Shown here: positions 34,182 to 62,146 of the stretch, piece by piece
Numbering within the stretch: the stretch's first letter is position 1
Layout of the letters: the number at the start of each line of letters is the position of its first letter
NCBI GenBank assembly: GCA_034370385.1
Contig: JAXMKZ010000011.1
Span: forward strand, 165,103-229,102
DNA: 64,000 nucleotides
Origin: Coriobacteriia bacterium
Lineage (GTDB): Bacteria; Actinomycetota; Coriobacteriia; Anaerosomatales; PHET01
Reading direction: 5' to 3'
Program-made: the position numbers and the translations under genes
Notes under the pieces: generated by a model
Database searches by the model: none
The model's input: the letters and a program-made list of their open reading frames with translations, nothing else
Told to the model about the DNA's origin: nothing

Positions 34182-36356
34182 CTACGGTACGGTCAGGTAG
34201 ACCGCGCGCGACGTCGTGGCGGCGTGGCGGGTGCTGGCGGGCACGCTCGCGGTGATGCGCCACTTTCCGGATCCTGGCACGGTGAGTCGAGCCGTGTAGC
34301 GGGTCGCTCCGTCACGCTGGCTGGCTTCCGCGCGCACGGTGCGCCGCGACACGTACCGTGCGCCCTGGAGCTCCGCTAGCACCACGCGTACGACGCCGTC
34401 GGCGTCGTACGTCGGCTTGAGCGTGCCCGCCACCGTGAACGCGACGCCCCTGCGAACCGACCCCACCGGCACCGGAGGACTCAGCTGAGCGCGCGGGGTC
34501 ACTTCGACGGTCCTGCTCACCGATTCAAAACGCCCCGGGGCGCCCTCGAACCGCACGCGGTATCGCGTCTGGCGAGCGGGTTTCACCGACACCCGGAATC
34601 CCCCGAAGGCATTCAGGGAGCCTGATGCGATGCCCAGAGTCCATCCGGATGATCCCGCAGGGCGTCTGTCCACGATGAATCCGGCCCGGGTAACGGGTTG
34701 GCCATCGGCCTCTTTCACCGAACCTGACAGGAATACCGACCCGCCCCACGCGCATGTCTTCGGAGCGGACACGGCAACGTTGGTCGGGCGTCCCTTCTCC
34801 CATGCGAGCGAGTACGCGCCGCCGCCCTCCTCAGCACTGACCACGATTCGGTAGACGCCTTCGGCCTCATCCGGGACGGCATAGTCCAGCCGAACCGATG
34901 TGCCCGTGGAAAGGACCGAGACGAGCGGTGCAGCGAGCGCGGTGCTCTCGCCTGAGGGGTCATAGAGGGTCAACGATATCGTGGCTGTTTCGGAGCCCTT
35001 GAACCACAGCCGGATCTCCTGTCCTGCAGCAAGCGCAATGGACAGCACGTCAACCGGGTCGGTCACCTCGTCCACGACGCCGTCGTGTGTGGCGGTGGTG
35101 AGGGGGATTCCCGGGAACTCGTCGTCAGAGGGCGCTTCGGGGTCCTCTCCGAGCGCGCGGTCGGCACGCACGAGACCAAACCCGAATCGGGGATCCTTGC
35201 CCATGGGCCCCAGATCCTCTGCGGTGTCCATGAGACGTCGGATCACCATTCCGGCGGTCCAGGTAGGATTGGCGGATCGCAGCAATGCGGCCACCCCGGC
35301 CACGTGGGGCGTGGCCATGGAGGTTCCGCTCATGACGCCCGTTCCCGAATCGGCTGCACCAGTGATCGGTCGTAGCGAGTGAACCGCTACCCCCGGCGCA
35401 ACCATGTCGAGCCGATCGCCGAATCGGGAGAACGAAGCGGACGCATCCGTCTCGTCGACTGCGCCCACGGACACGACATCCGGATACGCAGCTGGATAGT
35501 CGAGCCCCGCGATGCCGCGGTTGCCCGCAGCCGCCACTACGACACAACCCTTGGAGACCGCGTAGTCGACGGCGTCGCTCAGCACGCGCGCATCGTCGGG
35601 TCCGCCGGCGCTCACGTTGATGACATCGGCACCTTGATCGGCGGCGTAGCGAATGCCCTCCGCCATGGTGGAGGTTTCTCCGTTGCCCCATCTGTCCAGC
35701 ACCCGGACGGGAATCAGCACGCACTCGCCGGCGATGCCCGCCACGTGACTTCCGTTGTCCGTCGCCGCCGCCAACACCCCCGCCACATGCGTGCCGTGGC
35801 CGAAGCCGTCATCGGCGACCGCGTCGCGGCCGATGAAATCGTAACCACGCGACGTATCGATTCGTCCCTCGAGGTCGGGGTGATCCAGGTCCACGCCGGA
35901 GTCCACCACCGCTATCCTCACCTCGCGGGAACCCTGGGTGATATCCCACGCATCGGGTGCGCCGATGCGCTCAAGGTTCCATTGAAGGCCGAAGTCAGGG
36001 TCGTCAGGCACGAACGCCGCTGTCACCCTGCTCTCCGGCTCGGCGTACTCGACTCCGGGCAAGCGTGAGACGGAAGCCGCGAATGCGGCGGGGTCCTCGC
36101 CCTCAGGAGCATCCGCAACGAGGAAGGCTCCGGGCCCGCTGCGCCGGATCACCGTGCCGCCGGCCCTCACGACCCGATTCTCCACGGCCTCAATGGTTCC
36201 TGCGGCCACGCCCACAACGACCGAGCCGGTCCACGCCTTCTCGGCGATGCGAGTCGAAGAGGCGACCTTGGCTCCCGCGGTGGGCACGGCGAGCCCGAAC
36301 GCCAGCGACACTGCGAGGATAAGTCGGAGGAACTCGGATGTCGGGCGAGTGAACAC
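34182..36356 (-). CDS. Secreted subtilisin-like (S8) serine protease with C-terminal beta-sandwich domains
   Basis: Signal peptide, then VAVVDSGVD (Asp), HGTHVAGV (His) and GTSMATPHVAG (Ser). The last ~200 aa are Ig-like modules shared with neighbouring secreted proteins. Confidence 0.85.
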   Translation of the reverse strand: MFTRPTSEFLRLILAVSLAFGLAVPTAGAKVASSTRIAEKAWTGSVVVGVAAGTIEAVENRVVRAGGTVIRRSGPGAFLVADAPEGEDPAAFAASVSRLPGVEYAEPESRVTAAFVPDDPDFGLQWNLERIGAPDAWDITQGSREVRIAVVDSGVDLDHPDLEGRIDTSRGYDFIGRDAVADDGFGHGTHVAGVLAAATDNGSHVAGIAGECVLIPVRVLDRWGNGETSTMAEGIRYAADQGADVINVSAGGPDDARVLSDAVDYAVSKGCVVVAAAGNRGIAGLDYPAAYPDVVSVGAVDETDASASFSRFGDRLDMVAPGVAVHSLRPITGAADSGTGVMSGTSMATPHVAGVAALLRSANPTWTAGMVIRRLMDTAEDLGPMGKDPRFGFGLVRADRALGEDPEAPSDDEFPGIPLTTATHDGVVDEVTDPVDVLSIALAAGQEIRLWFKGSETATISLTLYDPSGESTALAAPLVSVLSTGTSVRLDYAVPDEAEGVYRIVVSAEEGGGAYSLAWEKGRPTNVAVSAPKTCAWGGSVFLSGSVKEADGQPVTRAGFIVDRRPAGSSGWTLGIASGSLNAFGGFRVSVKPARQTRYRVRFEGAPGRFESVSRTVEVTPRAQLSPPVPVGSVRRGVAFTVAGTLKPTYDADGVVRVVLAELQGARYVSRRTVRAEASQRDGATRYTARLTVPGSGKWRITASVPASTRHAATTSRAVYLTVP

Positions 36357-37502
36357 CTACTTCACCGTCACCGTGCGCGGAGACGAAACGGTCGCGGCAT
36401 GAAGCGTGTCGGTCGGCACGGACGCCCGCAGTTGGAACGTCCCCTTAGGGAGTTTCAGTGAAGCACTCCACCCCGTCGACGAGTGCCGTGCCGGCACAGC
36501 GCGATAGACGCGCCACCCGGAACCAGACTTGCGAGCGACGAGCACACGGACATGCCCGGAGCCCCGGCTGTGTGCGGGCTTGAGCGCACCGCTCACCGTG
36601 AATGCCTTTCCGAACGTCGCACGCGACGGCGCCTTCGGCGCGGGCAGGTATGCGCGCGGCCACACGGTCATGACGGGGCCGATTCCGTAACCGACCGCAC
36701 TGCCGTCCTGCGTCACGCTCCATGTGCTCTGAATGCGGTAGTCGGTCCGCTTAGCCGGCTTGGCCTGCAACGTGAATGAGCCGTCGGCGGCGGTCTTGGT
36801 CGAGGCGACCCTGGTCCATGTGGTGGAGCCGTACGGTCGCTGCCTGATCTGGACCGCGAACCCGACCATCGGACGACCGGCGACAAGGGCGGTGCCGGTG
36901 GCTGACGCGCTGCCGCCGAACCGGACGATCACCGGAGCCGTGGACATGATGTCGGGCGTCGGCAGCTGAGTCCGGCGCCACACCAACGTGTAGGGACCGG
37001 ATCCATCGAACTGCTGCGCAACGTGTACGTAGAACGTGGCCGTCGACGATCGATCGGAGACGTAGGAGATGCGCTCAACCGCCCCGGTCGCCCCCTCGGA
37101 AGCGCGCAGGATCGGTGTGAACGGCCTGGTGAACGCGACGGACAGACGGCGGGTGCCGGGCGCGATGAGATACAGATCGAAATCCGCATCGGGGGGCGGC
37201 GTCATCGTCGCCTCAAAACGCTCGTTGTAGGCCAGCCGGAACTGGTACACGTCGTCGATGTCCCACAGTGGCACATTGCCCGGGCCGACCGCGGTGGTCT
37301 CGGTGAGGGAGTCACGCACCGTCCCCCCCGAGCCCTGTAGCGCGACTCCGGGGATGTCATCGTCAGCCGCGCGCGCGAACGCCGCGCCGACGCTCAACAC
37401 GATGAACACGATAGCAAGCACGACAACGCGGCTTGTGAAAACGCCTCTTCGCCTCATCAAAACGCAGCCTTCCTCAACGGGGACCGATCGCACGAGCGAC
37501 AT
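36357..37502 (-). CDS. Secreted PPC (pre-peptidase C-terminal)-like domain protein carrying the shared C-terminal modules
   Basis: TM/signal at the N-terminus, DVYQFRL...DFDLYLI PPC-like core, and a C-terminus AFTVSGALKPAH...LHAATVSSPRTVTVK. Its stop abuts the protease start. Confidence 0.6.
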   Translation of the reverse strand: MSLVRSVPVEEGCVLMRRRGVFTSRVVVLAIVFIVLSVGAAFARAADDDIPGVALQGSGGTVRDSLTETTAVGPGNVPLWDIDDVYQFRLAYNERFEATMTPPPDADFDLYLIAPGTRRLSVAFTRPFTPILRASEGATGAVERISYVSDRSSTATFYVHVAQQFDGSGPYTLVWRRTQLPTPDIMSTAPVIVRFGGSASATGTALVAGRPMVGFAVQIRQRPYGSTTWTRVASTKTAADGSFTLQAKPAKRTDYRIQSTWSVTQDGSAVGYGIGPVMTVWPRAYLPAPKAPSRATFGKAFTVSGALKPAHSRGSGHVRVLVARKSGSGWRVYRAVPARHSSTGWSASLKLPKGTFQLRASVPTDTLHAATVSSPRTVTVK

Positions 37503-51967: not shown

Positions 51968-52381
51968 TCAGGGGATGAGCTCGAGCGAGCCGGCGAACGT
52001 GGGCTTGTAGGCCGCAAGCCGCCGGTCGAACGACATGATCCGCGCGGTGCCTTCGCGCTCGCAGGTCGCCAGCAGCGTGCAGTCGGCGAACCCGAACCCG
52101 GCGTCGGCGTAGGCGAGGTCAATGGCGTGAGCGTTGGCGATCAGGTCGGCGTCCGTGCCCAGGATCGTGATGCCAGACGCTTCAAGCGAGTCCCAGAAGT
52201 GGCGCTGGACGTGCAGCCCCCAGTGTGACTTCAGGAGTCCCATCGTTTCGGCGAGAATGGCGGCTGGGACCGCAAGGCCGTCACGTGCGTGCGCTACGAG
52301 GGCGGCGCGCGCTCGGGAGTGGTTCGACTCGTTCTGCCGAGCGGCAGCTATCAGGAAGCTCGTGTCAGTCAGAATCAGCAA
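51968..52381 (-). CDS. vapC: PIN-domain toxin VapC (pair 1)
   Basis: LILTDTSFLIAA...ILAET...FADCTLLA...SFDRRL places the acidic PIN residues correctly. The TTG start at 52381 is preceded by AGGAG and overlaps the vapB end. Confidence 0.8.
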   Translation of the reverse strand: MLILTDTSFLIAAARQNESNHSRARAALVAHARDGLAVPAAILAETMGLLKSHWGLHVQRHFWDSLEASGITILGTDADLIANAHAIDLAYADAGFGFADCTLLATCEREGTARIMSFDRRLAAYKPTFAGSLELIP

Positions 52382-52649
52382 GACCGTGCTCCTGATCCCA
52401 TTCGCCGCCTGGCCTGAAGTAGTCCGCGAGAATCTCATCCACGCGCATCGACAGGTCGGTCGCGGGGTCGTCATCCTCGATGACTCCCACGATCGCGAGG
52501 TAGTTGGTCGTCGCCGGCTTCTCGGTGTGCGCGCGGTACTCCGCAATGGCCTCGCGCGCGATCTCGGCCATGGAGGAACCCCGCCTCTGCGCCTCTTCGG
52601 CGAGGAAGGCATGCAGCTCCTCAGGCAGGTACATCATCGTCTTCTTCAT
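52365..52649 (-). CDS. vapB: Ribbon-helix-helix antitoxin VapB (pair 1)
   Basis: MKKTMMYLPEELHAFLAEEAQRRGSSMAEIAREAI is a CopG/RHH N-terminus. Confidence 0.75.
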   Translation of the reverse strand: MKKTMMYLPEELHAFLAEEAQRRGSSMAEIAREAIAEYRAHTEKPATTNYLAIVGVIEDDDPATDLSMRVDEILADYFRPGGEWDQEHGLADSD

Positions 52650-52711: not shown

Positions 52712-54151
52712 TCAGTTGCGCACCGTGAAGTACCTGATCGAGCTCCAGCTCGGATCGTGCCCGAGGTCCGCGTGGTACGAACGCACGTACCACTTGCCTG
52801 CAGTGGGCAGCGTGACAGCCTTGCGATAGGTCCCGACGCCGCCGAGCACACCGACGTTCGTGCCGGTCTTGTAGACGTACTTCCCCTTCGAGTTGCGCAG
52901 GTAGAACTTGAGCGCGACGCTCGTCGAGTACACATGAGCCGGCAGCGTCCCCGACACGTAGAACCGCGCCTTCTTGCGAGGACTCGACGGAGACAAACTC
53001 GGCGTCCCAAGCTTCGCGATCGTGCCTCCGAGACGCGCCCACGTGAGGCCGCCGTTGCGCGAGACGAACGCGCCGCCCTCTCCCCCCGTGTACGATCCGC
53101 CGGTCACCACGAACACGGTGTTGTCGTTGGCGAAGTTCGGCGAGTAGTCGATGTCCTCGATCCAGCTCCCGGTCAGCCCGGTCTCAGCGCGCACCCAGGT
53201 GACCCCGCGGTCGGTCGAACGGCCGAACAGCGGCCCCGGATCGATTCCGGCGCTCACCGACCGCGCTCCTCCCGCGAGTACGGTGTTGTCGATCGCGAAA
53301 CGCGGCGAGGTCACGATCGATCGCGCGGGGATGACCCCGAAGCCCTCGGCTATCCGCGTGAACTGCGCGCCTCCATCCGTGGAACGGAAGATGTGCCCGT
53401 TGCCGTGGGTGGCGAAGACGGTGTGGTCGTTGGCGAAGTCCGACGAGTAGCACGCATCGTTGAATCCCTGATTCCACGAGGGGGACACGGCGGCTGGACT
53501 CCACGCTGACCCGCCGGTGGTGGACACGCGGATAGTGTCGCGGAAGCCCTCGACCGCAACGAGTCCGCCGTCCGTGGCAAACCCGGGCGACATCGCGAAG
53601 TTGTCCATCGCCAGCTCGCCGTAAGCACCGCTCGGCGTGATGAGCGTCCAGGATTCGCCGGCGTCGGCTGACTTGTAGAGGTTCGTGTTCACCATCGCGA
53701 CGATGGTCCGGTCGGCCGCGAACCCCGGCGAGATCCGCAGGCGGTACGGCTGGCCGTCGAACGGCAGGCCCGTGGAGAGCTTCGTCCACGTCGCCCCCCC
53801 GTCAACCGAGCGGTAGATTGCGGCGCCGACGCCGAAGCGGTTGCCCCGCGACGCAACGAACAGTGTGCGGTCAGTGGCGTACGCGGGCGAGACTGCGATG
53901 TCCTCGATGTCCTGCGGAGCGCCGGCGATCAGTGAGAACGATGAGCCACCGTTCGTGCTCTTCCAGAAGGTGGCGTCGTACTGGCCGCCCACGAAGATCG
54001 TCTTGTCGGTGGCGAACGCAGGCGAGACGGCCAGGGACTTGATCTCTTTCCCCTTGCCGGGCGGCGAGACGGCGCCGGCGACGGTCGGCGAGACGACAAG
54101 TGCGACGAGCATCGCGAGTGCGAGTGTGCGGCCGAGATACCTGTGCAACAT
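52712..54151 (-). CDS. Secreted BNR/Asp-box beta-propeller protein (Ycf48/sortilin-like) ending in the shared C-terminal module
   Basis: Signal MLHRYLGRTLALAMLVALVVSPTVAGA. At least six SxDxGxTW-type boxes (STNGGSSF, SVDGGATW, SADAGESW, STTGGSAW, STDGGAQF, STDRGVTW, SRNGGLTW). Confidence 0.75.
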   Translation of the reverse strand: MLHRYLGRTLALAMLVALVVSPTVAGAVSPPGKGKEIKSLAVSPAFATDKTIFVGGQYDATFWKSTNGGSSFSLIAGAPQDIEDIAVSPAYATDRTLFVASRGNRFGVGAAIYRSVDGGATWTKLSTGLPFDGQPYRLRISPGFAADRTIVAMVNTNLYKSADAGESWTLITPSGAYGELAMDNFAMSPGFATDGGLVAVEGFRDTIRVSTTGGSAWSPAAVSPSWNQGFNDACYSSDFANDHTVFATHGNGHIFRSTDGGAQFTRIAEGFGVIPARSIVTSPRFAIDNTVLAGGARSVSAGIDPGPLFGRSTDRGVTWVRAETGLTGSWIEDIDYSPNFANDNTVFVVTGGSYTGGEGGAFVSRNGGLTWARLGGTIAKLGTPSLSPSSPRKKARFYVSGTLPAHVYSTSVALKFYLRNSKGKYVYKTGTNVGVLGGVGTYRKAVTLPTAGKWYVRSYHADLGHDPSWSSIRYFTVRN

Positions 54152-54323
54152 GGATACCGCCCCCCAAGGCGAAAGCGCGTCGGCGCGAATTGCCGACGCC
54201 ACGAGGAGAGTGTACCCGTGAGGGACGGGCAGTTCCCGGGGCGCCTGCCACTTCGCCGCCTCGTTTCATGGGTATACACTGATAGTGGTTATCGAGGTTC
54301 TCCACCATCGAACGGACGCCGGC

Positions 54324-57434: not shown

Positions 57435-60400
57435 CTACTTCACCTGCAGGTAGTCGTAGTTCTTCGACCAGCTCGCGGCGTGTCCTGAATCGGCGTGGTA
57501 AGCGCGCATGCGCCAGCGGCCGGCCTTGGTGAGCCGCAGCGAAACGCGGTACCTCGAGTAGGTGGCATGGTTCGCACAGGTAGCGTTCTTGTAGCCATAA
57601 GCCTTCCAGCGGCCCTTCTCCAAGCGCCACAGGTAGACGCGCACGGGCTTGGAGCCGACCGCGTGACGCGGCTTGAGCGTGCCGCTCACCGTGATCGGCT
57701 TGCCCACCTTGGCCTTGGGCGGCGCGACCGGGGTGCCCACGAACGCGCGCGGCAACACCCATGCGCCCGGGCCCACGACGCCCGGCACCCCTTCGCCGGG
57801 CAGCGAACGCACGCGATAGATGGCGCGAACACCCGGAACTACGGTGATACTGAACCCTCCGTCAGCCGCGGTCGCGACCGGAGCCGAGCAATCAGAGAAA
57901 CCCACGCCGTCAGAGGAGGACTGCGCCACGACGCGTGCGCCCGCTATCGGGCCCGCCTCGGCGCTCAGGCGGCCTTCGAGCACGAACGGATCACCCCAGG
58001 CCGGCAGTACGCGTGATGTCGTGAGCATCTCGATCCAGGCCGGGCCGGTGACGGTGAAGGTGTGGACCACCGAGGCGCTCCGGTTACCGGCCACGTCGAT
58101 CGCCCACGCGGTGATGGTGTGCGGGCCGGGAACCTCGTAGGCCACGAGCGCCTCTGACACCGGCAGCGTGGCTGTGGGCTCTTGGCCGATGCGCCACCCG
58201 ACCGCCGAGACGCCCGAGAGGGTGTCGGCTCCCCAAAGGCGCAGGCGCGCCAGGTAGCTCACCGTGCTCGAGTCGGCGATGGTGAGGGTCGGCGCTGTCA
58301 GGTCGATGCGCACGATGGCGGTCTCGGTCGCACAGCGGTTGCCCGCACCGTCAATCGCACTGTAGGCGAGCGTCGAGGTGCCCTGCTCGGAGATGATCAC
58401 GGTACTCGCCGATCCCGCGGACTGCCCGGCGAGCGGGGGCCCGGACGGCCCGGTGACCAGCCACTCGATGCGGGCGATGCCCGAACCGTCGTCCGTGGCG
58501 CGCAGGCGCACCGTCACAGGCGCCGCCCGCCACACGCCCGGGGCGTCGTCTGAGACGCTCGGTGCGGTGGTGTCGGGGACGACCGGGGCGGCGATGTGGA
58601 CGGTGGTGGAGTGCGGATCCTCGGTGTTGCCGGCCGTGTCGACCGACCAGAAGCTCACGGTCGTGGTGCCCACGGTGCTCACGGCGAACGGGCCGCCGTA
58701 GATCGAGGCGGGGCCGGTCCCGATGCGGAACCACGTGCTCGCGACACCAGAGCGCGTGTCGGAAGGTGTGAGGGTCACGAGGACCGGGGCGCCGGGGGCG
58801 CCGGGAACGTGTGCGGCTGTCGTGTGTGGCGCGCTCTTGTCGATGCGCACTACAGCGGTCTCGGTCGCGCAGCGGTTGCCGGCGACGTCGATGGCCGAGT
58901 ACTCGATGGTGGTGGTGCCCTCGGCGCTGATCGCGACCTTCGCGGGGCTGCTCGCCGAGGAACCCGCACCTGCGCTCGCACCTGAGAGGGCCCAGTCGAT
59001 GCTCGCGATGCCACTGCGCGCATCAGAGGCGGTGATGGTCACGGTGACGTCGCCCGTCTGCCAGCCGCCCGGCGCGTCGTCTGAGACGGTGGGGGCATCG
59101 GTGTCCACGGTCACGAAGGCGGACTTGGCAGTCGGGTTACCGGCCAGGTCGCTGCACCACGCCATGATGAGGTGATCGCCTGAAGCGCCTGGCGAGAACG
59201 AGCCGCCGGTATAGAGCTGGGGCGCGCCTCCGTCGACGGTGTAGAAGACCGGACCGACACCGGATACCGCATCCGATGCCTCGATCGAGACCGAGGAGGG
59301 CGAGGCGGTGATCGCGAGCCCCGGCGCGCTCTTGTCGAGCCGCACGGTCGCGGTCTCGGTCGCGCAGCGGTTGCCGGCCACATCAGCGGCCGAGTACTCG
59401 ATGGTGGTGGTGCCCTCGTCGGTGAGTGCGACGGTCGCGATGCCGGCAGAAGGATGCGTCACGGTGGGTGTGCCCCCGCCGGTGACGAGGACGTCGGTAC
59501 CCGCGACGCCGGAGAGCGCGTCGGTCGCCTCCACCGTCACCGTGACGTCATGCGCACGCCAGCCGCCCGGAGCGTCGTCTGAGACAGCCGGCAGACCGGT
59601 GTCGACGAGGATCGGCCCGAAGTGGGTGCCGGCAGACCACAAGCCGACCGCATCGGCTGTAGCGACGTTGACGTAGAGCGGCACACCCGGAGTGGCGGCA
59701 AACGTGAACGCCGAGGTGCCGGCCGAATGCGTGACGATGGGCAGCGGGTACCCGGTCGTGCCGGTCGAGACCGAGATCGCGAAGCCGGCGACGGGCGCGA
59801 CGGTGCCCGTCGCACTGCTGATGTCCACCGTGACCGTGGCGCTCTTGGACCAGACGCCCTGCGTGTGGGTCAAACTCGTCAGCGTCGGGTCCACCGGCGC
59901 GACCGGACCGGCCAAGTCCACGTACTCGTGGGCTCCCATGTCAAAGCCCGCTCCCCGTGGCCGCCAGACGCCGAGCTTGTCTGCTGCCGGCGCGGCCGTG
60001 GAGGTCGCCACATCAATGCACGGAGAGCCGGCCTTCAGTCGGAAGTCGCCCGCCGAGGTCGCGACGAAGCTCGGTGCGACCGAGATGTTGCCGGTACCCG
60101 CGTCCCCGTCCTCGATGTCCGAGTAGGTCGCCGAACAGCCGAGGAGGTCGTCTCCGTTGCCCCACACGATGCTGTTCGTGATGGCCGGCACGGAAAGGGC
60201 GCAGTAGATGCCGCCGCCGGTGGTCGCGGAGTTGCCCGTGATGGTGCTGTTCGTGATGGTCGGAGCGGACCCGTCGCCAAAGATGAAAATGCCGCCGCCG
60301 CCGCCGTTGCCGCCGGAGTAGCCGGGGGCGGAGTTGCCGGAGATGGTGTTGTTCGTGATCGCTGGCGAGGAGTAGGAGGAGTAGATGCCGCCGCCGTAGG

Positions 60401-61517
60401 TGGCGCTGAAGTTGTCGGTGATGGTGTTGTTCGTGATCGCCGGCGAGGAGGATTCGCAGCAGTAGATGCCGCCGCCTGCGCCGAAGCGGAAGTTCTTGGA
60501 GTTGAAGGCGGAGTTGCCGGAGATGGTGTTGTTCGTGATCGCTGGCGAGGAGAGGAGGCCGCCGCACCAGATGCCGGCGCCGTATTGTGTGGCGGAGTTG
60601 CCGGACATGGTGTTGTTTGTGATCGCCGGCGAGGAGGAGAGACAGTAGATGCCGCCGCCGTAGCTGGCGGAGTTGCTGGTGATGATGTTGTTCGTGATCG
60701 CCGGCGAGCCGGGGTCGCAGGAGATGCCGCCGCCGAAGTTGGCGGAGTTGCGGGTGATGATGTTGTTCGTGATCGCCGGCGAGGAGGAGAGACAGTAAAT
60801 GCCGCCGCCGTTGGCGGGGATGCCGGAGACGGAGTTGCCGGAGATGGTGTTGTTCGTGATCGCTGGCGAGGAGGAGAGACAGTAAATGCCGCCGCCGCCG
60901 CCGCCGTCGCCGAAGGCGAAGCCGGAGGCGGAGTTGCCGGAGATGGTGTTGTTCGTGATCGCTGGCGAGGAGGAGAGACAGTAAATGCCGCCGCCGTAGT
61001 CGGTGGAGTTGCCGGAGATGTTGTTCTCAGAGATCGTCGGCGAGGAGTCGAAGCAGTAGATGCCGCCGCCGCCGTTGGTGGCGGAGTTGCCGGAGATGGT
61101 GTTGTTCGTGATCGCTGGCGAGGAGGAGCGACAGTAGATGCCGCCGCCGTAGGTGGCGGAACCGCCTGTGATCGTGAATCCGTCGATGCTCTCACCGGTG
61201 CCGGTGCTGCTCACCGTCACGACCGAGCCTGTGCCGGTGCCCTTGAGCGTCGTCGACGCGGCGCCGGCGCCGTGGATCGACACACCGTCCTTCATCGTGA
61301 TGTTTCCGCAGAAGGTCCCCGGCCCCACGTTGACGTCATCGCCTGCCGCCGCGGAATCGATAGCGTGCTGGACGGTGGCGAACGGCATGAGCGGCGAGCC
61401 GTCCCCAAGCGTGTCGCTCCCGAACTGCGACACAAAGACAGGTGCCGCCTGCGCGGTCAACGGGAACGCGAGTACGGATGCGAACAGAACGAGCGCTACG
61501 AGCACGAAGCGGCGCAT
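57435..61517 (-). CDS. Giant (1360 aa) secreted protein: about 13 PbH1-type parallel beta-helix repeats, several Ig-like domains, and the shared C-terminal module
   Basis: GGAGG lies 8 nt upstream of ATG 61517. Signal MRRFVLVALVLFASVLAFPLTAQA. Repeats read ITNNTISGNSA..GGGIYC.SSSPA. Three ~95-aa domains end in AGNRCATETA.VR.D. The ORF-track extension to 62390 overlaps the real vapBC genes and is rejected. Confidence 0.85.
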   Translation of the reverse strand: MRRFVLVALVLFASVLAFPLTAQAAPVFVSQFGSDTLGDGSPLMPFATVQHAIDSAAAGDDVNVGPGTFCGNITMKDGVSIHGAGAASTTLKGTGTGSVVTVSSTGTGESIDGFTITGGSATYGGGIYCRSSSPAITNNTISGNSATNGGGGIYCFDSSPTISENNISGNSTDYGGGIYCLSSSPAITNNTISGNSASGFAFGDGGGGGGIYCLSSSPAITNNTISGNSVSGIPANGGGIYCLSSSPAITNNIITRNSANFGGGISCDPGSPAITNNIITSNSASYGGGIYCLSSSPAITNNTMSGNSATQYGAGIWCGGLLSSPAITNNTISGNSAFNSKNFRFGAGGGIYCCESSSPAITNNTITDNFSATYGGGIYSSYSSPAITNNTISGNSAPGYSGGNGGGGGIFIFGDGSAPTITNSTITGNSATTGGGIYCALSVPAITNSIVWGNGDDLLGCSATYSDIEDGDAGTGNISVAPSFVATSAGDFRLKAGSPCIDVATSTAAPAADKLGVWRPRGAGFDMGAHEYVDLAGPVAPVDPTLTSLTHTQGVWSKSATVTVDISSATGTVAPVAGFAISVSTGTTGYPLPIVTHSAGTSAFTFAATPGVPLYVNVATADAVGLWSAGTHFGPILVDTGLPAVSDDAPGGWRAHDVTVTVEATDALSGVAGTDVLVTGGGTPTVTHPSAGIATVALTDEGTTTIEYSAADVAGNRCATETATVRLDKSAPGLAITASPSSVSIEASDAVSGVGPVFYTVDGGAPQLYTGGSFSPGASGDHLIMAWCSDLAGNPTAKSAFVTVDTDAPTVSDDAPGGWQTGDVTVTITASDARSGIASIDWALSGASAGAGSSASSPAKVAISAEGTTTIEYSAIDVAGNRCATETAVVRIDKSAPHTTAAHVPGAPGAPVLVTLTPSDTRSGVASTWFRIGTGPASIYGGPFAVSTVGTTTVSFWSVDTAGNTEDPHSTTVHIAAPVVPDTTAPSVSDDAPGVWRAAPVTVRLRATDDGSGIARIEWLVTGPSGPPLAGQSAGSASTVIISEQGTSTLAYSAIDGAGNRCATETAIVRIDLTAPTLTIADSSTVSYLARLRLWGADTLSGVSAVGWRIGQEPTATLPVSEALVAYEVPGPHTITAWAIDVAGNRSASVVHTFTVTGPAWIEMLTTSRVLPAWGDPFVLEGRLSAEAGPIAGARVVAQSSSDGVGFSDCSAPVATAADGGFSITVVPGVRAIYRVRSLPGEGVPGVVGPGAWVLPRAFVGTPVAPPKAKVGKPITVSGTLKPRHAVGSKPVRVYLWRLEKGRWKAYGYKNATCANHATYSRYRVSLRLTKAGRWRMRAYHADSGHAASWSKNYDYLQVK
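60150..61150 (-). repeat. Intragenic tandem coding repeats (66-75 nt units), including five perfect copies of a 44-nt core
   Basis: cggagttgccggagatggtgttgttcgtgatcgctggcgaggag occurs at 60329..60372, 60509..60552, 60830..60873, 60929..60972 and 61082..61125 (plus strand). Degenerate copies lie between them. Confidence 0.85.
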
Positions 61518-61741
61518 GGGATTCCCCTCCGAAACCATGGTTGCATGCCATCCGGCACCTGATGCTGATGCGGTGCGACATCGCCGCGCAGCCAGCATAA
61601 CCCAACGCGAGCGCACGAGCGGACGCCGAGACGGCACAGACGCCCGCCTCCCTGGGCTGCGACGGCGACCCCTGTCGAAAGGCGAGGTTGACTTGTAGGA
61701 ATGCGCCCATGCCACGCGAACACGTGGGCGAGCGGCGTGTG

Positions 61742-62146
61742 TCACGTGATGATCAGCGCGCCGGGATACGCACCGTGTGCACAGGCGTCCGCGCTCACGA
61801 GCGTCGCACCGAGCAGACTCGCGCACGCCGGCGCGAGCGCGTCGTAGAACGAGCAGCCCAGGGCGGCGCACTGGGTGGCGGCCTCGGCGATGACTTGGTC
61901 TTCGAGCGGAACGATCGTGATGCCCGACGCTTTCATATCCTCCCACGCCTCGGGAATCGCCCGATGGGTGAATTCGCGCCGCACGACGGACAGCACCTCG
62001 TGCACGAAATGCGTCGGCGCAACGAGCAGAATCTCTCCGTCCATTGCCCTGCGATACAGGACACGCGAGGCGTCCGAGCCGGGTTCGTCCATGAACCACT
62101 TCACCCCGATGGACGCATCGAGTGCGAAGGCTTCCCGCGAACTCAC
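61742..62146 (-). CDS. vapC: PIN-domain toxin VapC (pair 3)
   Basis: ALDASIGVKWF...HFVHEVL...FYDALAPA...LVSADACA. ATGA-type overlap with vapB. Confidence 0.85.
   Translation of the reverse strand: MSSREAFALDASIGVKWFMDEPGSDASRVLYRRAMDGEILLVAPTHFVHEVLSVVRREFTHRAIPEAWEDMKASGITIVPLEDQVIAEAATQCAALGCSFYDALAPACASLLGATLVSADACAHGAYPGALIIT

What the first reader, a model, noticed from the sequence alone, without database searches (positions are those of the whole stretch)
60328..61125. Five perfect 44-bp DNA repeats (two extended to 68 bp) inside the beta-helix coding region
The string cggagttgccggagatggtgttgttcgtgatcgctggcgaggag occurs identically at 60329, 60509, 60830, 60929 and 61082 (plus-strand starts). 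The copies at 60830 and 60929 continue identically through ...gaggagagacagtaaatgccgccgcc. Identity at synonymous positions far exceeds what protein conservation requires. This implies recent intragenic duplication or gene conversion. Such repeats are substrates for recombination or slippage that could change rung number (size variation of the surface protein). They are also a risk for assembly collapse.
Basis: seen in the sequence. Interest (0 to 1): 0.55.

Follow-up and report, generated by a model that had tools for sequence, protein, structure and literature searches.

The report
Recently homogenised rungs in beta-helix gene
A secreted beta-helix protein gene of an uncultured Coriobacteriia bacterium carries five letter-for-letter identical 44-bp stretches because its helical "rungs" were recently copied and homogenised by recombination, a real but ordinary feature of repetitive surface-protein genes.

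Summary
Observation confirmed. The 44-mer occurs exactly at 60329, 60509, 60830, 60929 and 61082. A sixth copy at 60593 has 3 mismatches. Two copies extend to 68 identical bases.

The copies lie in a minus-strand gene (57435-61517, 1360 aa). It encodes a signal peptide, 12 parallel beta-helix rungs, a choice-of-anchor Q domain, six OmpL47-type barrels and Ig-like C-terminal domains. Each 44-mer encodes SSPAITNNTISGNS, the core of rungs R1, R3, R4, R8 and R10.

Codon bias does not explain the identity. Two independent encodings would match with P about 4e-6 to 3e-5. All five copies share the rare CCA proline codon (6% usage).

Homologs with conserved caps have 3, 7 and 10 rungs against 12 here. 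Two of them have fully diverged rungs (pS about 0.55-0.60, against 0.13 here). So the amplification and homogenisation are recent and specific to this lineage. Four-gamete and tract-clustering tests point to unequal recombination or gene conversion rather than simple serial duplication.

Distant family members also carry exact rung repeats of 43-240 nt, so the phenomenon recurs in this family. Present-day length variation and assembly collapse could not be tested, because no reads or close strains were found.

This is a new member of a known kind. Interest is low to moderate.

The parts
57435..61517 (-). CDS of the 1360-aa secreted right-handed parallel beta-helix repeat protein. The ATG is at 61517, preceded by GGAGG; the stop is at 57435-57437.
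   Evidence: Translation. Pfam Beta_helix 104 bits, NosD-like and DUF1565. NCBIfam OmpL47-type barrel x6, choice-of-anchor Q and para_beta_helix. It is 100% identical to P0001, 'MAG: right-handed parallel beta-helix repeat-containing protein [Coriobacteriia bacterium]'. Homologs P0016, P0003 and P0040 start with the same MRR...AAPVFVS N-terminus.
61446..61517 (-). Sec-type signal peptide, aa 1-24: MRRFVLVALVLFASVLAFPLTAQA, followed by AP.
   Evidence: Read from the translation. AF2 models it as an N-terminal helix, aa 2-17. The assignment is an inference from the sequence pattern; no signal-peptide predictor was run.
60141..61148 (-). Array of 12 regular beta-helix rungs R1-R12 (aa 124-459). 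Units are 75-102 nt. Consensus: GGGIYCLSSSPAITNNTISGNSA plus a variable loop.
   Evidence: Rung table, codon alignment, repeat families D2 and D3, TRF periods 75, 99, 153 and 186. AF2 pLDDT is above 90 through the rungs, with three short strands per rung.
61082..61125 (-). Exact 44-mer copy in rung R1, encoding (S)SSPAITNNTISGNS.
60929..60996 (-). Exact 68-mer (contains the 44-mer) in rung R3.
60830..60897 (-). Exact 68-mer (contains the 44-mer) in rung R4. Together with R3 it forms a 99-nt-period pair with 93% matches.
60509..60552 (-). Exact 44-mer copy in rung R8.
60329..60372 (-). Exact 44-mer copy in rung R10.
60593..60636 (-). Sixth, near-identical copy (3 mismatches) in rung R7. It uses CCG instead of CCA, ACA instead of ACG, and ATG (Met) instead of ATC.
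59922..60047 (-). Choice-of-anchor Q domain (aa 491-532), just after the beta-helix C-cap (WGNGDDLLGCSATYSDIEDGDAG).
   Evidence: NCBIfam NF041518, 40.5 bits against a cut-off of 25. The cap is conserved in P0016, P0003 and P0040.
58038..59840 (-). Six OmpL47-type beta-barrel / Ig-like domains (aa about 560-1160). They include three older units of about 165-177 aa (DDAPG at aa 647, 813 and 990) with only 63-85% nucleotide identity.
   Evidence: NF047446, 249.6 bits, 6 stretches. Repeat families D4-D6. DDAPG positions.
57438..58001 (-). C-terminal Ig-like region (aa 1173-1360), shared with three other ORFs of the window.
   Evidence: tblastn hits at 32-39% identity to the C-termini of ORFs 36357-37502, 34182-36356 and 52712-54202. 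Weak CarboxypepD_reg match below the cut-off.

Best explanation
The 44-bp repeats are the coding cores of the rungs of one right-handed parallel beta-helix domain. The protein is secreted and comes from an uncultured Coriobacteriia bacterium. Each rung reads GGGIYC-x-SSSPAITNNTISGNSA followed by a variable loop.

In this lineage the interior rungs (R1-R10) were recently amplified from one or a few rungs. They have also been partly homogenised by unequal homologous recombination and/or short-tract gene conversion between rungs. That is why the five rungs with the same core peptide are also identical base for base and share a rare codon.

The differences that remain are mostly amino-acid changes at a few positions, plus insertions in the loop after GNSA.

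The copies are direct repeats in the same codon phase and the same rung register. They are therefore plausible substrates for further in-frame gain or loss of whole rungs, so helix length can drift over evolutionary time.

Shown: the identity, its excess over codon bias, its lineage specificity, the reticulate pattern, and different rung counts among homologs. Inferred: the recombination mechanism, any ongoing instability, and surface exposure.
For: (1) There are five exact copies plus one near copy, and none in shuffles. The 68-mer pair is exact.

(2) Two independent encodings of SSPAITNNTISGNS would be identical with P = 3.6e-6 to 3.2e-5. Same-amino-acid codon identity is 0.915 against 0.47 expected.

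(3) The Pro codon CCA (6% of Pro codons in the window, 5% in the rest of the gene) is present in exactly the five identical copies. R2, R5, R6, R7, R9, R11 and R12 use CCG.

(4) pS among R1-R10 is 0.13. Among the rungs of homologs P0016 and P0003 it is 0.54-0.60. Their longest intragenic exact repeats are 20 and 13 nt, and they have no repeated 30-mer. The non-repeat caps of those homologs are 60-72% identical in amino acids to the window protein, with pS about 0.6.

(5) Interior window rungs are nearest to each other (0-4 of 42 nt) and at least 5-8 of 42 nt from any homolog rung. The last rung before the C-cap instead matches homolog last rungs about as closely as, or more closely than, rungs of its own gene. 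This is the classic signature of interior-repeat turnover.

(6) Reticulation: sites ATT/ATC and TGT/TGC are four-gamete incompatible with sites CCA/CCG and TCC/ACC. One breakpoint between the GGGIYC half and the PAITNN half explains this. Identical tracts are longer than expected when polymorphic sites are permuted (SSCF: 1 or 0 of 5000 permutations reached the observed value, P about 0.0002 or less; P = 0.006 without the loop codons).

(7) Block duplications are visible. TRF reports period 99 (R3/R4, 93% matches) and period 186 (R7-R8 against R9-R10, 83%).

(8) Rung counts are 3, 7, 10 and 12 among homologs with conserved caps. The closest, P0040, has its own 69-nt exact repeat at 75-nt spacing.

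(9) Other family members carry exact rung repeats of 43, 59, 90 and 240 nt.

(10) The AF2 model is a regular beta-helix with pLDDT above 90. Confidence dips only at the inserted loops.
Against: No population or strain data exist, so no ongoing change in rung number is demonstrated. The four-gamete signal rests on four informative sites and could be homoplasy. The tract-clustering test can be inflated by uneven constraint along the rung. The homologs sit in different gene neighbourhoods, so they may be paralogous lineages rather than strict orthologs. The P0040 rung count comes from a k141 short-read contig and could itself be collapsed. Exact tracts of 44-68 bp are short compared with the repeats of hundreds of bp in proteins known to vary in length, so instability may be low.
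Confidence: 0.8

Rival explanations
1. No recent event: the rungs are old, and their DNA identity follows only from strong purifying selection on the peptide plus the codon bias of a 65% G+C genome.
For: Several codons in the core are the strongly preferred ones (AAC 80%, ATC 83%, GGC 49%). The peptide motif is conserved across the whole family (consensus).
Against: The probability of identical encoding is 4e-6 to 3e-5 per pair. The core uses non-preferred TCC three times (18%) and the rare CCA (6%). Homologs under the same kind of protein constraint have rung pS of 0.54-0.60 and same-amino-acid codon identity of 0.54-0.57.
Confidence: 0.02
2. Assembly artefact: the array was mis-joined, collapsed or chimerically built from strain variants in a metagenome assembly, so the number and order of rungs, and perhaps some of the identity, are not real.
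For: The source is a MAG contig. Repeats of 44-68 nt at 75-102-nt periods are the kind that short-read assemblers handle poorly. The closest homolog, with only 3 rungs, is on a k141 contig.
Against: The reading frame is intact through all 12 rungs and every unit is a multiple of 3. No two rungs are identical over more than 68 nt, so assembly k-mers longer than that give a unique path. AF2 folds the array as one continuous, confident helix. The contig is 242.7 kb. An artefact could change the copy number but would not create the identity.
Confidence: 0.07
3. A programmed variable-length surface protein, Periscope-like or a contingency locus: the DNA identity is maintained by selection because frequent gain and loss of rungs, or shuffling of loops, adapts the cell surface or evades phage or predators.
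For: The protein has a signal peptide, a long modular architecture and anchor-type C-terminal domains. Rung number differs 3-12 among homologs. Differences among rungs are mostly nonsynonymous: at least 39 nonsynonymous to 5 synonymous changes, omega about 2.7, P = 0.018, or 2.2 and P = 0.10 without the loop codons. Periscope proteins are proposed to use high DNA identity for intragenic recombination (PMC8201768).
Against: Whole units are only 60-92% identical and exact tracts are 44-68 nt, far from the long, highly identical domain repeats that define Periscope proteins. No variation between strains or reads is available. The beta-helix is one folded domain rather than a stalk of independent domains. 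The omega signal is marginal.
Confidence: 0.1
4. The repeat is conserved for a nucleic-acid-level function, such as an RNA structure, a protein-binding site or an antisense gene, rather than for coding reasons.
For: A 646-aa ORF lies on the opposite strand (59622-61562 +).
Against: The repeats are in the same phase as the minus-strand codons and coincide exactly with a protein motif that has strong Pfam and NCBIfam support. GC3 is 0.83 in the minus-strand frame. Long antisense ORFs are expected in G+C-rich repetitive coding DNA. No promoter-like site lies in the array, and only two weak terminator-like matches do.
Confidence: 0.01

Closest known systems
Right-handed parallel beta-helix (PbH1) repeat proteins with a choice-of-anchor Q domain (Pfam PF13229, TIGR03804, NF041518)
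   Same: HMM matches are above the curated cut-offs. The rung motif is the GGGIYC...SSPxIxNNxIxGNxA motif seen in thousands of homologs. The predicted fold is a three-stranded right-handed helix, and the structural neighbours are AlgE4, the Sf6 tailspike and chondroitinase B.
   Different: Nothing essential differs; this is a member. The C-terminal modules are OmpL47-type barrels plus Ig-like domains, whereas the closest homologs P0016 and P0040 carry CW_binding_2 repeats. No catalytic or ligand function can be assigned.
Periscope Proteins (SasG, Aap, Rib, Sgo_0707; PMC8201768)
   Same: These are secreted or surface proteins in which DNA-level identity between tandem repeats is thought to allow intragenic recombination and so a change in repeat number. 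Here too the repeats are direct, in frame and in register.
   Different: Periscope repeats are long, whole globular domains that are highly identical throughout and form a stalk. Here the units are rungs of 25-34 aa within a single solenoid domain. Only 44-68 nt are exact, and whole units are 60-92% identical. Length variation between strains is not documented.
Concerted evolution or lineage-specific expansion of interior units in tandem-repeat proteins (general phenomenon; own knowledge, e.g. ice-nucleation protein solenoids and yeast adhesins)
   Same: Interior repeats are more alike within a gene than between homologs, while the terminal repeats stay orthologous. Synonymous divergence between the units is low.
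   Different: No new feature was seen. The only notable detail is that homogeneity is confined to the core while the loops differ by indels.
Pertactin and other autotransporter beta-helix adhesins with polymorphic repeat regions (own knowledge)
   Same: A beta-helix exposed outside the cell with repeat-number polymorphism.
   Different: In pertactin the variable repeats (GGxxP, PQP) are loop insertions, not whole rungs. It is a Gram-negative autotransporter. No sequence relationship was tested or claimed.

Membership tests
Right-handed parallel beta-helix repeat proteins (PF13229 Beta_helix / TIGR03804 para_beta_helix) | Profile match above the curated cut-off | tested here: met
   PF13229: 104.1 bits against a cut-off of 25.9, 3 stretches. 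TIGR03804: 38.4 against 19.45.
Right-handed parallel beta-helix repeat proteins (PF13229 Beta_helix / TIGR03804 para_beta_helix) | Three-stranded right-handed beta-helix fold with stacked rungs | tested here: met
   AF2 model of aa 1-560: pTM 0.82, pLDDT above 90 over the rungs, three short strands per rung of about 25 aa. Foldseek hits are all right-handed beta-helix proteins, although TM-scores are only 0.2-0.4.
Choice-of-anchor Q domain proteins (NF041518) | Profile match above the cut-off, located after the beta-helix | tested here: met
   40.5 bits against a cut-off of 25, aa 491-532.
OmpL47-type beta-barrel domain proteins (NF047446) | Domain profile above the cut-off | tested here: met
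   249.6 bits against a cut-off of 40, 6 stretches.
Leptospira OmpL47 equivalog (NF047441) | Whole-protein score above the equivalog cut-off | tested here: not met
   124.6 bits against a cut-off of 250. It shares the domain type only.
NosD copper-maturation family (TIGR04247) | Whole-protein score above the cut-off | tested here: not met
   49 bits against a cut-off of 300. The Pfam NosD hit reflects generic beta-helix similarity.
Chlamydia Pmp repeat proteins (PF02415) | Repeat profile above the gathering score | tested here: not met
   19.7 bits against 20.6.
Periscope Proteins (PMC8201768) | Tandem array of long, highly identical (DNA-level) repeats, each a globular domain | tested here: not met
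   Units are 75-102 nt, rungs of one domain. Whole-unit identity is 60-92% and exact tracts are at most 68 nt.
Periscope Proteins (PMC8201768) | Repeat-number variation between strains of a species | not testable with these tools
   No second strain or reads were found. The exact 44-mer is absent from JGI metagenome contigs. There are no close relatives among the GTDB representatives or in the metagenomes. The protein is a singleton cluster. Homologs at 59-66% identity over the N-terminal 560 aa have 3, 7 and 10 rungs.
Diversity-generating retroelement target (VR/TR pair) | A template repeat outside the gene that matches the variable region | tested here: not met
   blastn of the rung DNA finds nothing outside 60000-61300 in the window. 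The neighbours are purL, a PIN-domain gene and a DUF5648 gene, with no reverse transcriptase among the flanking genes scanned.
Simple-sequence contingency locus (on/off phase variation) | Short unit (1-9 nt) tract whose slippage shifts the reading frame | tested here: not met
   All rung units and copy spacings are multiples of 3: units of 75-102 nt, spacings of 180, 321, 99 and 153 nt. Only short GCC runs of about 8 units are present.

The most novel reading that the evidence does not exclude
The rung array is an actively variable locus. Recombination between the 44-68-bp cores would change rung number and reshuffle the loop insertions within the natural population. That would give a 'solenoid-type' variable-length or variable-surface protein, a Periscope-like principle operating inside a single beta-helix domain. 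Positive selection on exposed rung positions would explain the excess of nonsynonymous differences.
Probability: 0.1. Interest if true: 0.5.

Novelty: new member of a known kind. Interest (0 to 1): 0.25.

Why it matters
This is a clean, quantified example of how beta-solenoid proteins grow and shrink. Interior rungs turn over by duplication and conversion while the caps stay orthologous, giving helices of 3 to 12 regular rungs among homologs.

In practice it flags this gene as one where copy number in short-read MAG assemblies should not be trusted without long reads. The same caution applies to family members with exact repeats of up to 240 nt.

It does not reveal a new mechanism or open a long-standing question.

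Tried and rejected
(1) I looked up the exact protein in the contig index and found no record.

(2) I scanned the JGI metagenome contigs for the exact 44-mer and got 0 hits.

(3) The search for related loci in the GTDB representative genomes and in the metagenome contigs gave only distant relatives: best-segment identities 23-49% with partial coverage. A strain-level comparison of repeat number was therefore impossible.

(4) Codon bias as the sole explanation is rejected.

(5) A donor or template copy elsewhere in the window (DGR-like or a paralog) was not found.

(6) The antisense ORF 59622-61562 (+) is treated as a by-product of G+C-rich repetitive coding DNA.

(7) Foldseek against the PDB, and a sequence search of the PDB, gave only generic beta-helix and tailspike similarity, so no function could be assigned.

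(8) Literature searches for concerted evolution of beta-solenoids and for ice-nucleation repeats returned nothing directly relevant.

(9) The pN/pS excess among rungs is only marginal, so I do not claim positive selection.


Full report
**1. Observation**

The 44-mer CGGAGTTGCCGGAGATGGTGTTGTTCGTGATCGCTGGCGAGGAG is present without mismatch at 60329, 60509, 60830, 60929 and 61082 on the + strand. A sixth copy at 60593 has 3 mismatches. No match was found in 100 dinucleotide-preserving shuffles.

The extension to 68 nt is exact at 60830-60897 and 60929-60996. A copy at 61082-61149 differs from it at 2 positions. The repeat finders show these copies are the best-conserved parts of a 12-unit array. 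Units are 75-102 nt long and whole-unit identity is 60-92%.

**2. What the sequence encodes**

The array lies in a minus-strand CDS, 57435-61517. The ATG is preceded by GGAGG. The 1360-aa product is 100% identical to a GenBank protein from a Coriobacteriia MAG (242.7-kb contig), annotated as a right-handed parallel beta-helix repeat protein. It is a singleton cluster.

The architecture is as follows:
- a signal peptide (aa 1-24, read from the sequence);
- an N-cap;
- 12 regular PbH1 rungs (aa 124-459), with Pfam Beta_helix at 104 bits;
- a conserved C-cap followed by a choice-of-anchor Q domain;
- six OmpL47-type barrel domains;
- an Ig-like C-terminal region.

An AlphaFold2 model of aa 1-560 is a regular beta-helix (pTM 0.82). 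pLDDT is above 90 along the rungs and dips only at the long loop insertions, at about aa 200-210, 340-350 and 400-410. Structural neighbours are generic right-handed beta-helices such as AlgE4, the Sf6 tailspike and chondroitinase B. No specific activity can be inferred from them.

The flanking genes are ordinary: purL, a PIN-domain gene and a DUF5648 gene.

**3. Anatomy of the repeats**

Read on the coding strand, the 44-mer is (TC)C TCG CCA GCG ATC ACG AAC AAC ACC ATC TCC GGC AAC TCC G, which encodes SSPAITNNTISGNS. This peptide occurs in rungs R1, R3, R4, R8 and R10, and all five are identical in DNA.

The five copies are not adjacent. They are interleaved with rungs R2, R5, R6, R7 and R9, which differ in amino acids and use CCG for the proline.

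Copy spacings are 180, 321, 99 and 153 nt. All are multiples of 3 and all are in the same rung register. Recombination between any two copies would therefore remove or add whole rungs (1, 2 or 4 rungs between neighbouring copies, up to 9 between R1 and R10) and keep both the reading frame and the helix intact. This follows directly from the sequence.

**4. Is the identity more than protein constraint requires?**

Yes. Codon usage was taken from 36 other long ORFs of the window. With it, two independent encodings of the 14-codon core would be identical with P = 3.6e-6. Using the codon usage of the rest of this gene gives P = 3.2e-5.

The core uses TCC (18% of Ser codons) three times and CCA (6% of Pro codons) once. 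CCA is found in exactly the five identical copies. Over all 66 rung pairs, codon identity at same-amino-acid positions is 0.915, against 0.47 expected.

**5. How recent, and by what process?**

Three homologs share the N-cap and C-cap with the window protein:
- P0040 is 66% identical over the N-terminal 560 aa.
- P0016 and P0003 are each 59% identical over that region.

For P0016 and P0003, cap amino-acid identity is 60-72% and cap pS is about 0.6. The caps of P0040 were compared by eye only.

The rungs of P0016 and P0003 are fully diverged. Their pS is 0.60 and 0.54, same-amino-acid codon identity is 0.54-0.57, the longest intragenic exact repeats are 20 and 13 nt, and no 30-mer is repeated. 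In the window gene, by contrast, pS is 0.13 among R1-R10.

Window rungs R1 and R3-R10 are 0-4 of 42 nt from their nearest sister rung, but at least 5-8 of 42 nt from any homolog rung. The last rung before the C-cap matches homolog last rungs about as closely as, or more closely than, rungs of its own gene. This is the standard signature of turnover of interior repeats between conserved ends.

Regular rung counts are 12 (window), 10 (P0016), 7 (P0003) and 3 (P0040). P0040 has its own 69-nt exact repeat at 75-nt spacing.

The history within the array is not a simple tree. The synonymous sites ATT/ATC and TGT/TGC lie in the GGGIYC half. They are four-gamete incompatible with CCA/CCG and TCC/ACC in the PAITNN half. 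A single breakpoint between the two halves explains all four incompatibilities.

A Sawyer-type permutation of polymorphic sites shows that identical tracts are longer than expected. For the SSCF statistic, 1 or 0 of 5000 permutations reached the observed value (P about 0.0002 or less). Without the three loop codons, P = 0.006.

TRF also detects higher-order blocks: R3/R4 at period 99 with 93% matches, and R7-R8 against R9-R10 at period 186 with 83% matches.

Taken together, the best reading is recent block duplication plus unequal crossing-over or short-tract conversion between rungs. Caveats:
- there are only four informative sites;
- constraint is uneven along the rung;
- the homologs sit in different gene neighbourhoods, so they may not be strict orthologs.

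**6. What differs between rungs**

Among R1-R10 the minimum numbers of changes are 39 nonsynonymous and 5 synonymous, giving omega of about 2.7 (P = 0.018). Without the loop codons the counts are 25 and 4, giving omega of about 2.2 (P = 0.10). This is suggestive of relaxed or diversifying selection at a few positions and in the loop after GNSA. It is not significant enough to claim.

**7. How common is this?**

Among the 120 best database hits, 94 contain a 12-residue peptide repeated at least twice, and 5 contain one repeated at least five times. This list is biased towards repeat-rich proteins.

The DNA of four such distant members shows exact intragenic repeats of 43, 59, 90 and 240 nt, with rung pS of 0.18-0.36. 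Nucleotide-identical rungs are therefore a recurrent property of this family and not peculiar to this gene.

**8. Comparison with known systems**

The protein is a member of the PbH1 / choice-of-anchor Q beta-helix proteins. It fails the cut-offs for NosD, for the Leptospira OmpL47 equivalog and for Chlamydia Pmp.

The evolutionary logic resembles that of Periscope Proteins, where DNA identity between repeats is proposed to permit intragenic recombination and length variation (PMC8201768). The defining features are not met here. The units are short rungs of a single domain, only 44-68 nt are exact, and no inter-strain variation is documented.

A DGR-type mechanism is excluded by the absence of any template copy. 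On/off phase variation is excluded because all units are multiples of 3.

From my own knowledge, not tested here: RecA-dependent recombination in E. coli needs roughly 25-50 bp of identity, so 44-68 bp is near the lower limit. Rates would be expected to be much lower than for repeats of hundreds of bp.

**9. What could not be done**

No reads, no same-species genomes and no exact-match contigs were available. Present-day length polymorphism and possible assembly collapse remain untested.

No two rungs are identical over more than 68 nt, so the assembled path is unique for assembly k-mers longer than that. The frame is intact and the array folds as one helix. This argues against a gross artefact but not against an under-counted copy number.

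**10. Verdict**

The functional corollaries (size variation now, assembly risk) are plausible but untested. The finding is a well-behaved example of a known phenomenon in a new member of a known protein family. Interest is 0.25.

Noticed in passing
window 57438-58001 (-), and ORFs 36357-37502 (-), 34182-36356 (-), 52712-54202 (-): The C-terminal 110-190 aa of the beta-helix protein are 32-39% identical to the C-termini of three other ORFs in the window: a subtilase S8, a BNR/sortilin-like protein and a 381-aa protein. Pfam matches are weak and below cut-off (CarboxypepD_reg; Big_3_5 in the 381-aa ORF). This may be a shared cell-surface retention module of this organism.
   Followed up: partly
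L028 6001-8346 (protein P0040): The closest homolog has only three regular rungs. Two of them form a 69-nt exact repeat 75 nt apart, and the protein ends in CW_binding_2 repeats. It lies on a k141 short-read contig, so the low rung count could be an assembly collapse.
   Followed up: partly
window 58038-59840 (-): Three older internal duplications of about 165-177 aa (DDAPG at aa 647, 813 and 990) lie within the OmpL47-type barrel region. Their nucleotide identity is only 63-85%, so they are much older than the rung repeats in the same gene.
   Followed up: partly
window 61742-62146 (-) and 51968-52612 (-): Two PIN-domain ORFs, probably toxin components of toxin-antitoxin pairs. One lies immediately upstream of the beta-helix gene. 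Partner antitoxins were not examined.
   Followed up: no
window 59622-61562 (+): A 646-aa ORF lies antisense to the rung array. It has no support as a gene and is best explained by the G+C-rich, repetitive coding sequence on the other strand.
   Followed up: partly
L026 501-5828 (protein P0008): A distant family member has 240-nt exact intragenic repeats and 855 repeated 30-mers. This is a far stronger candidate for repeat-number instability or assembly collapse than the window gene.
   Followed up: no
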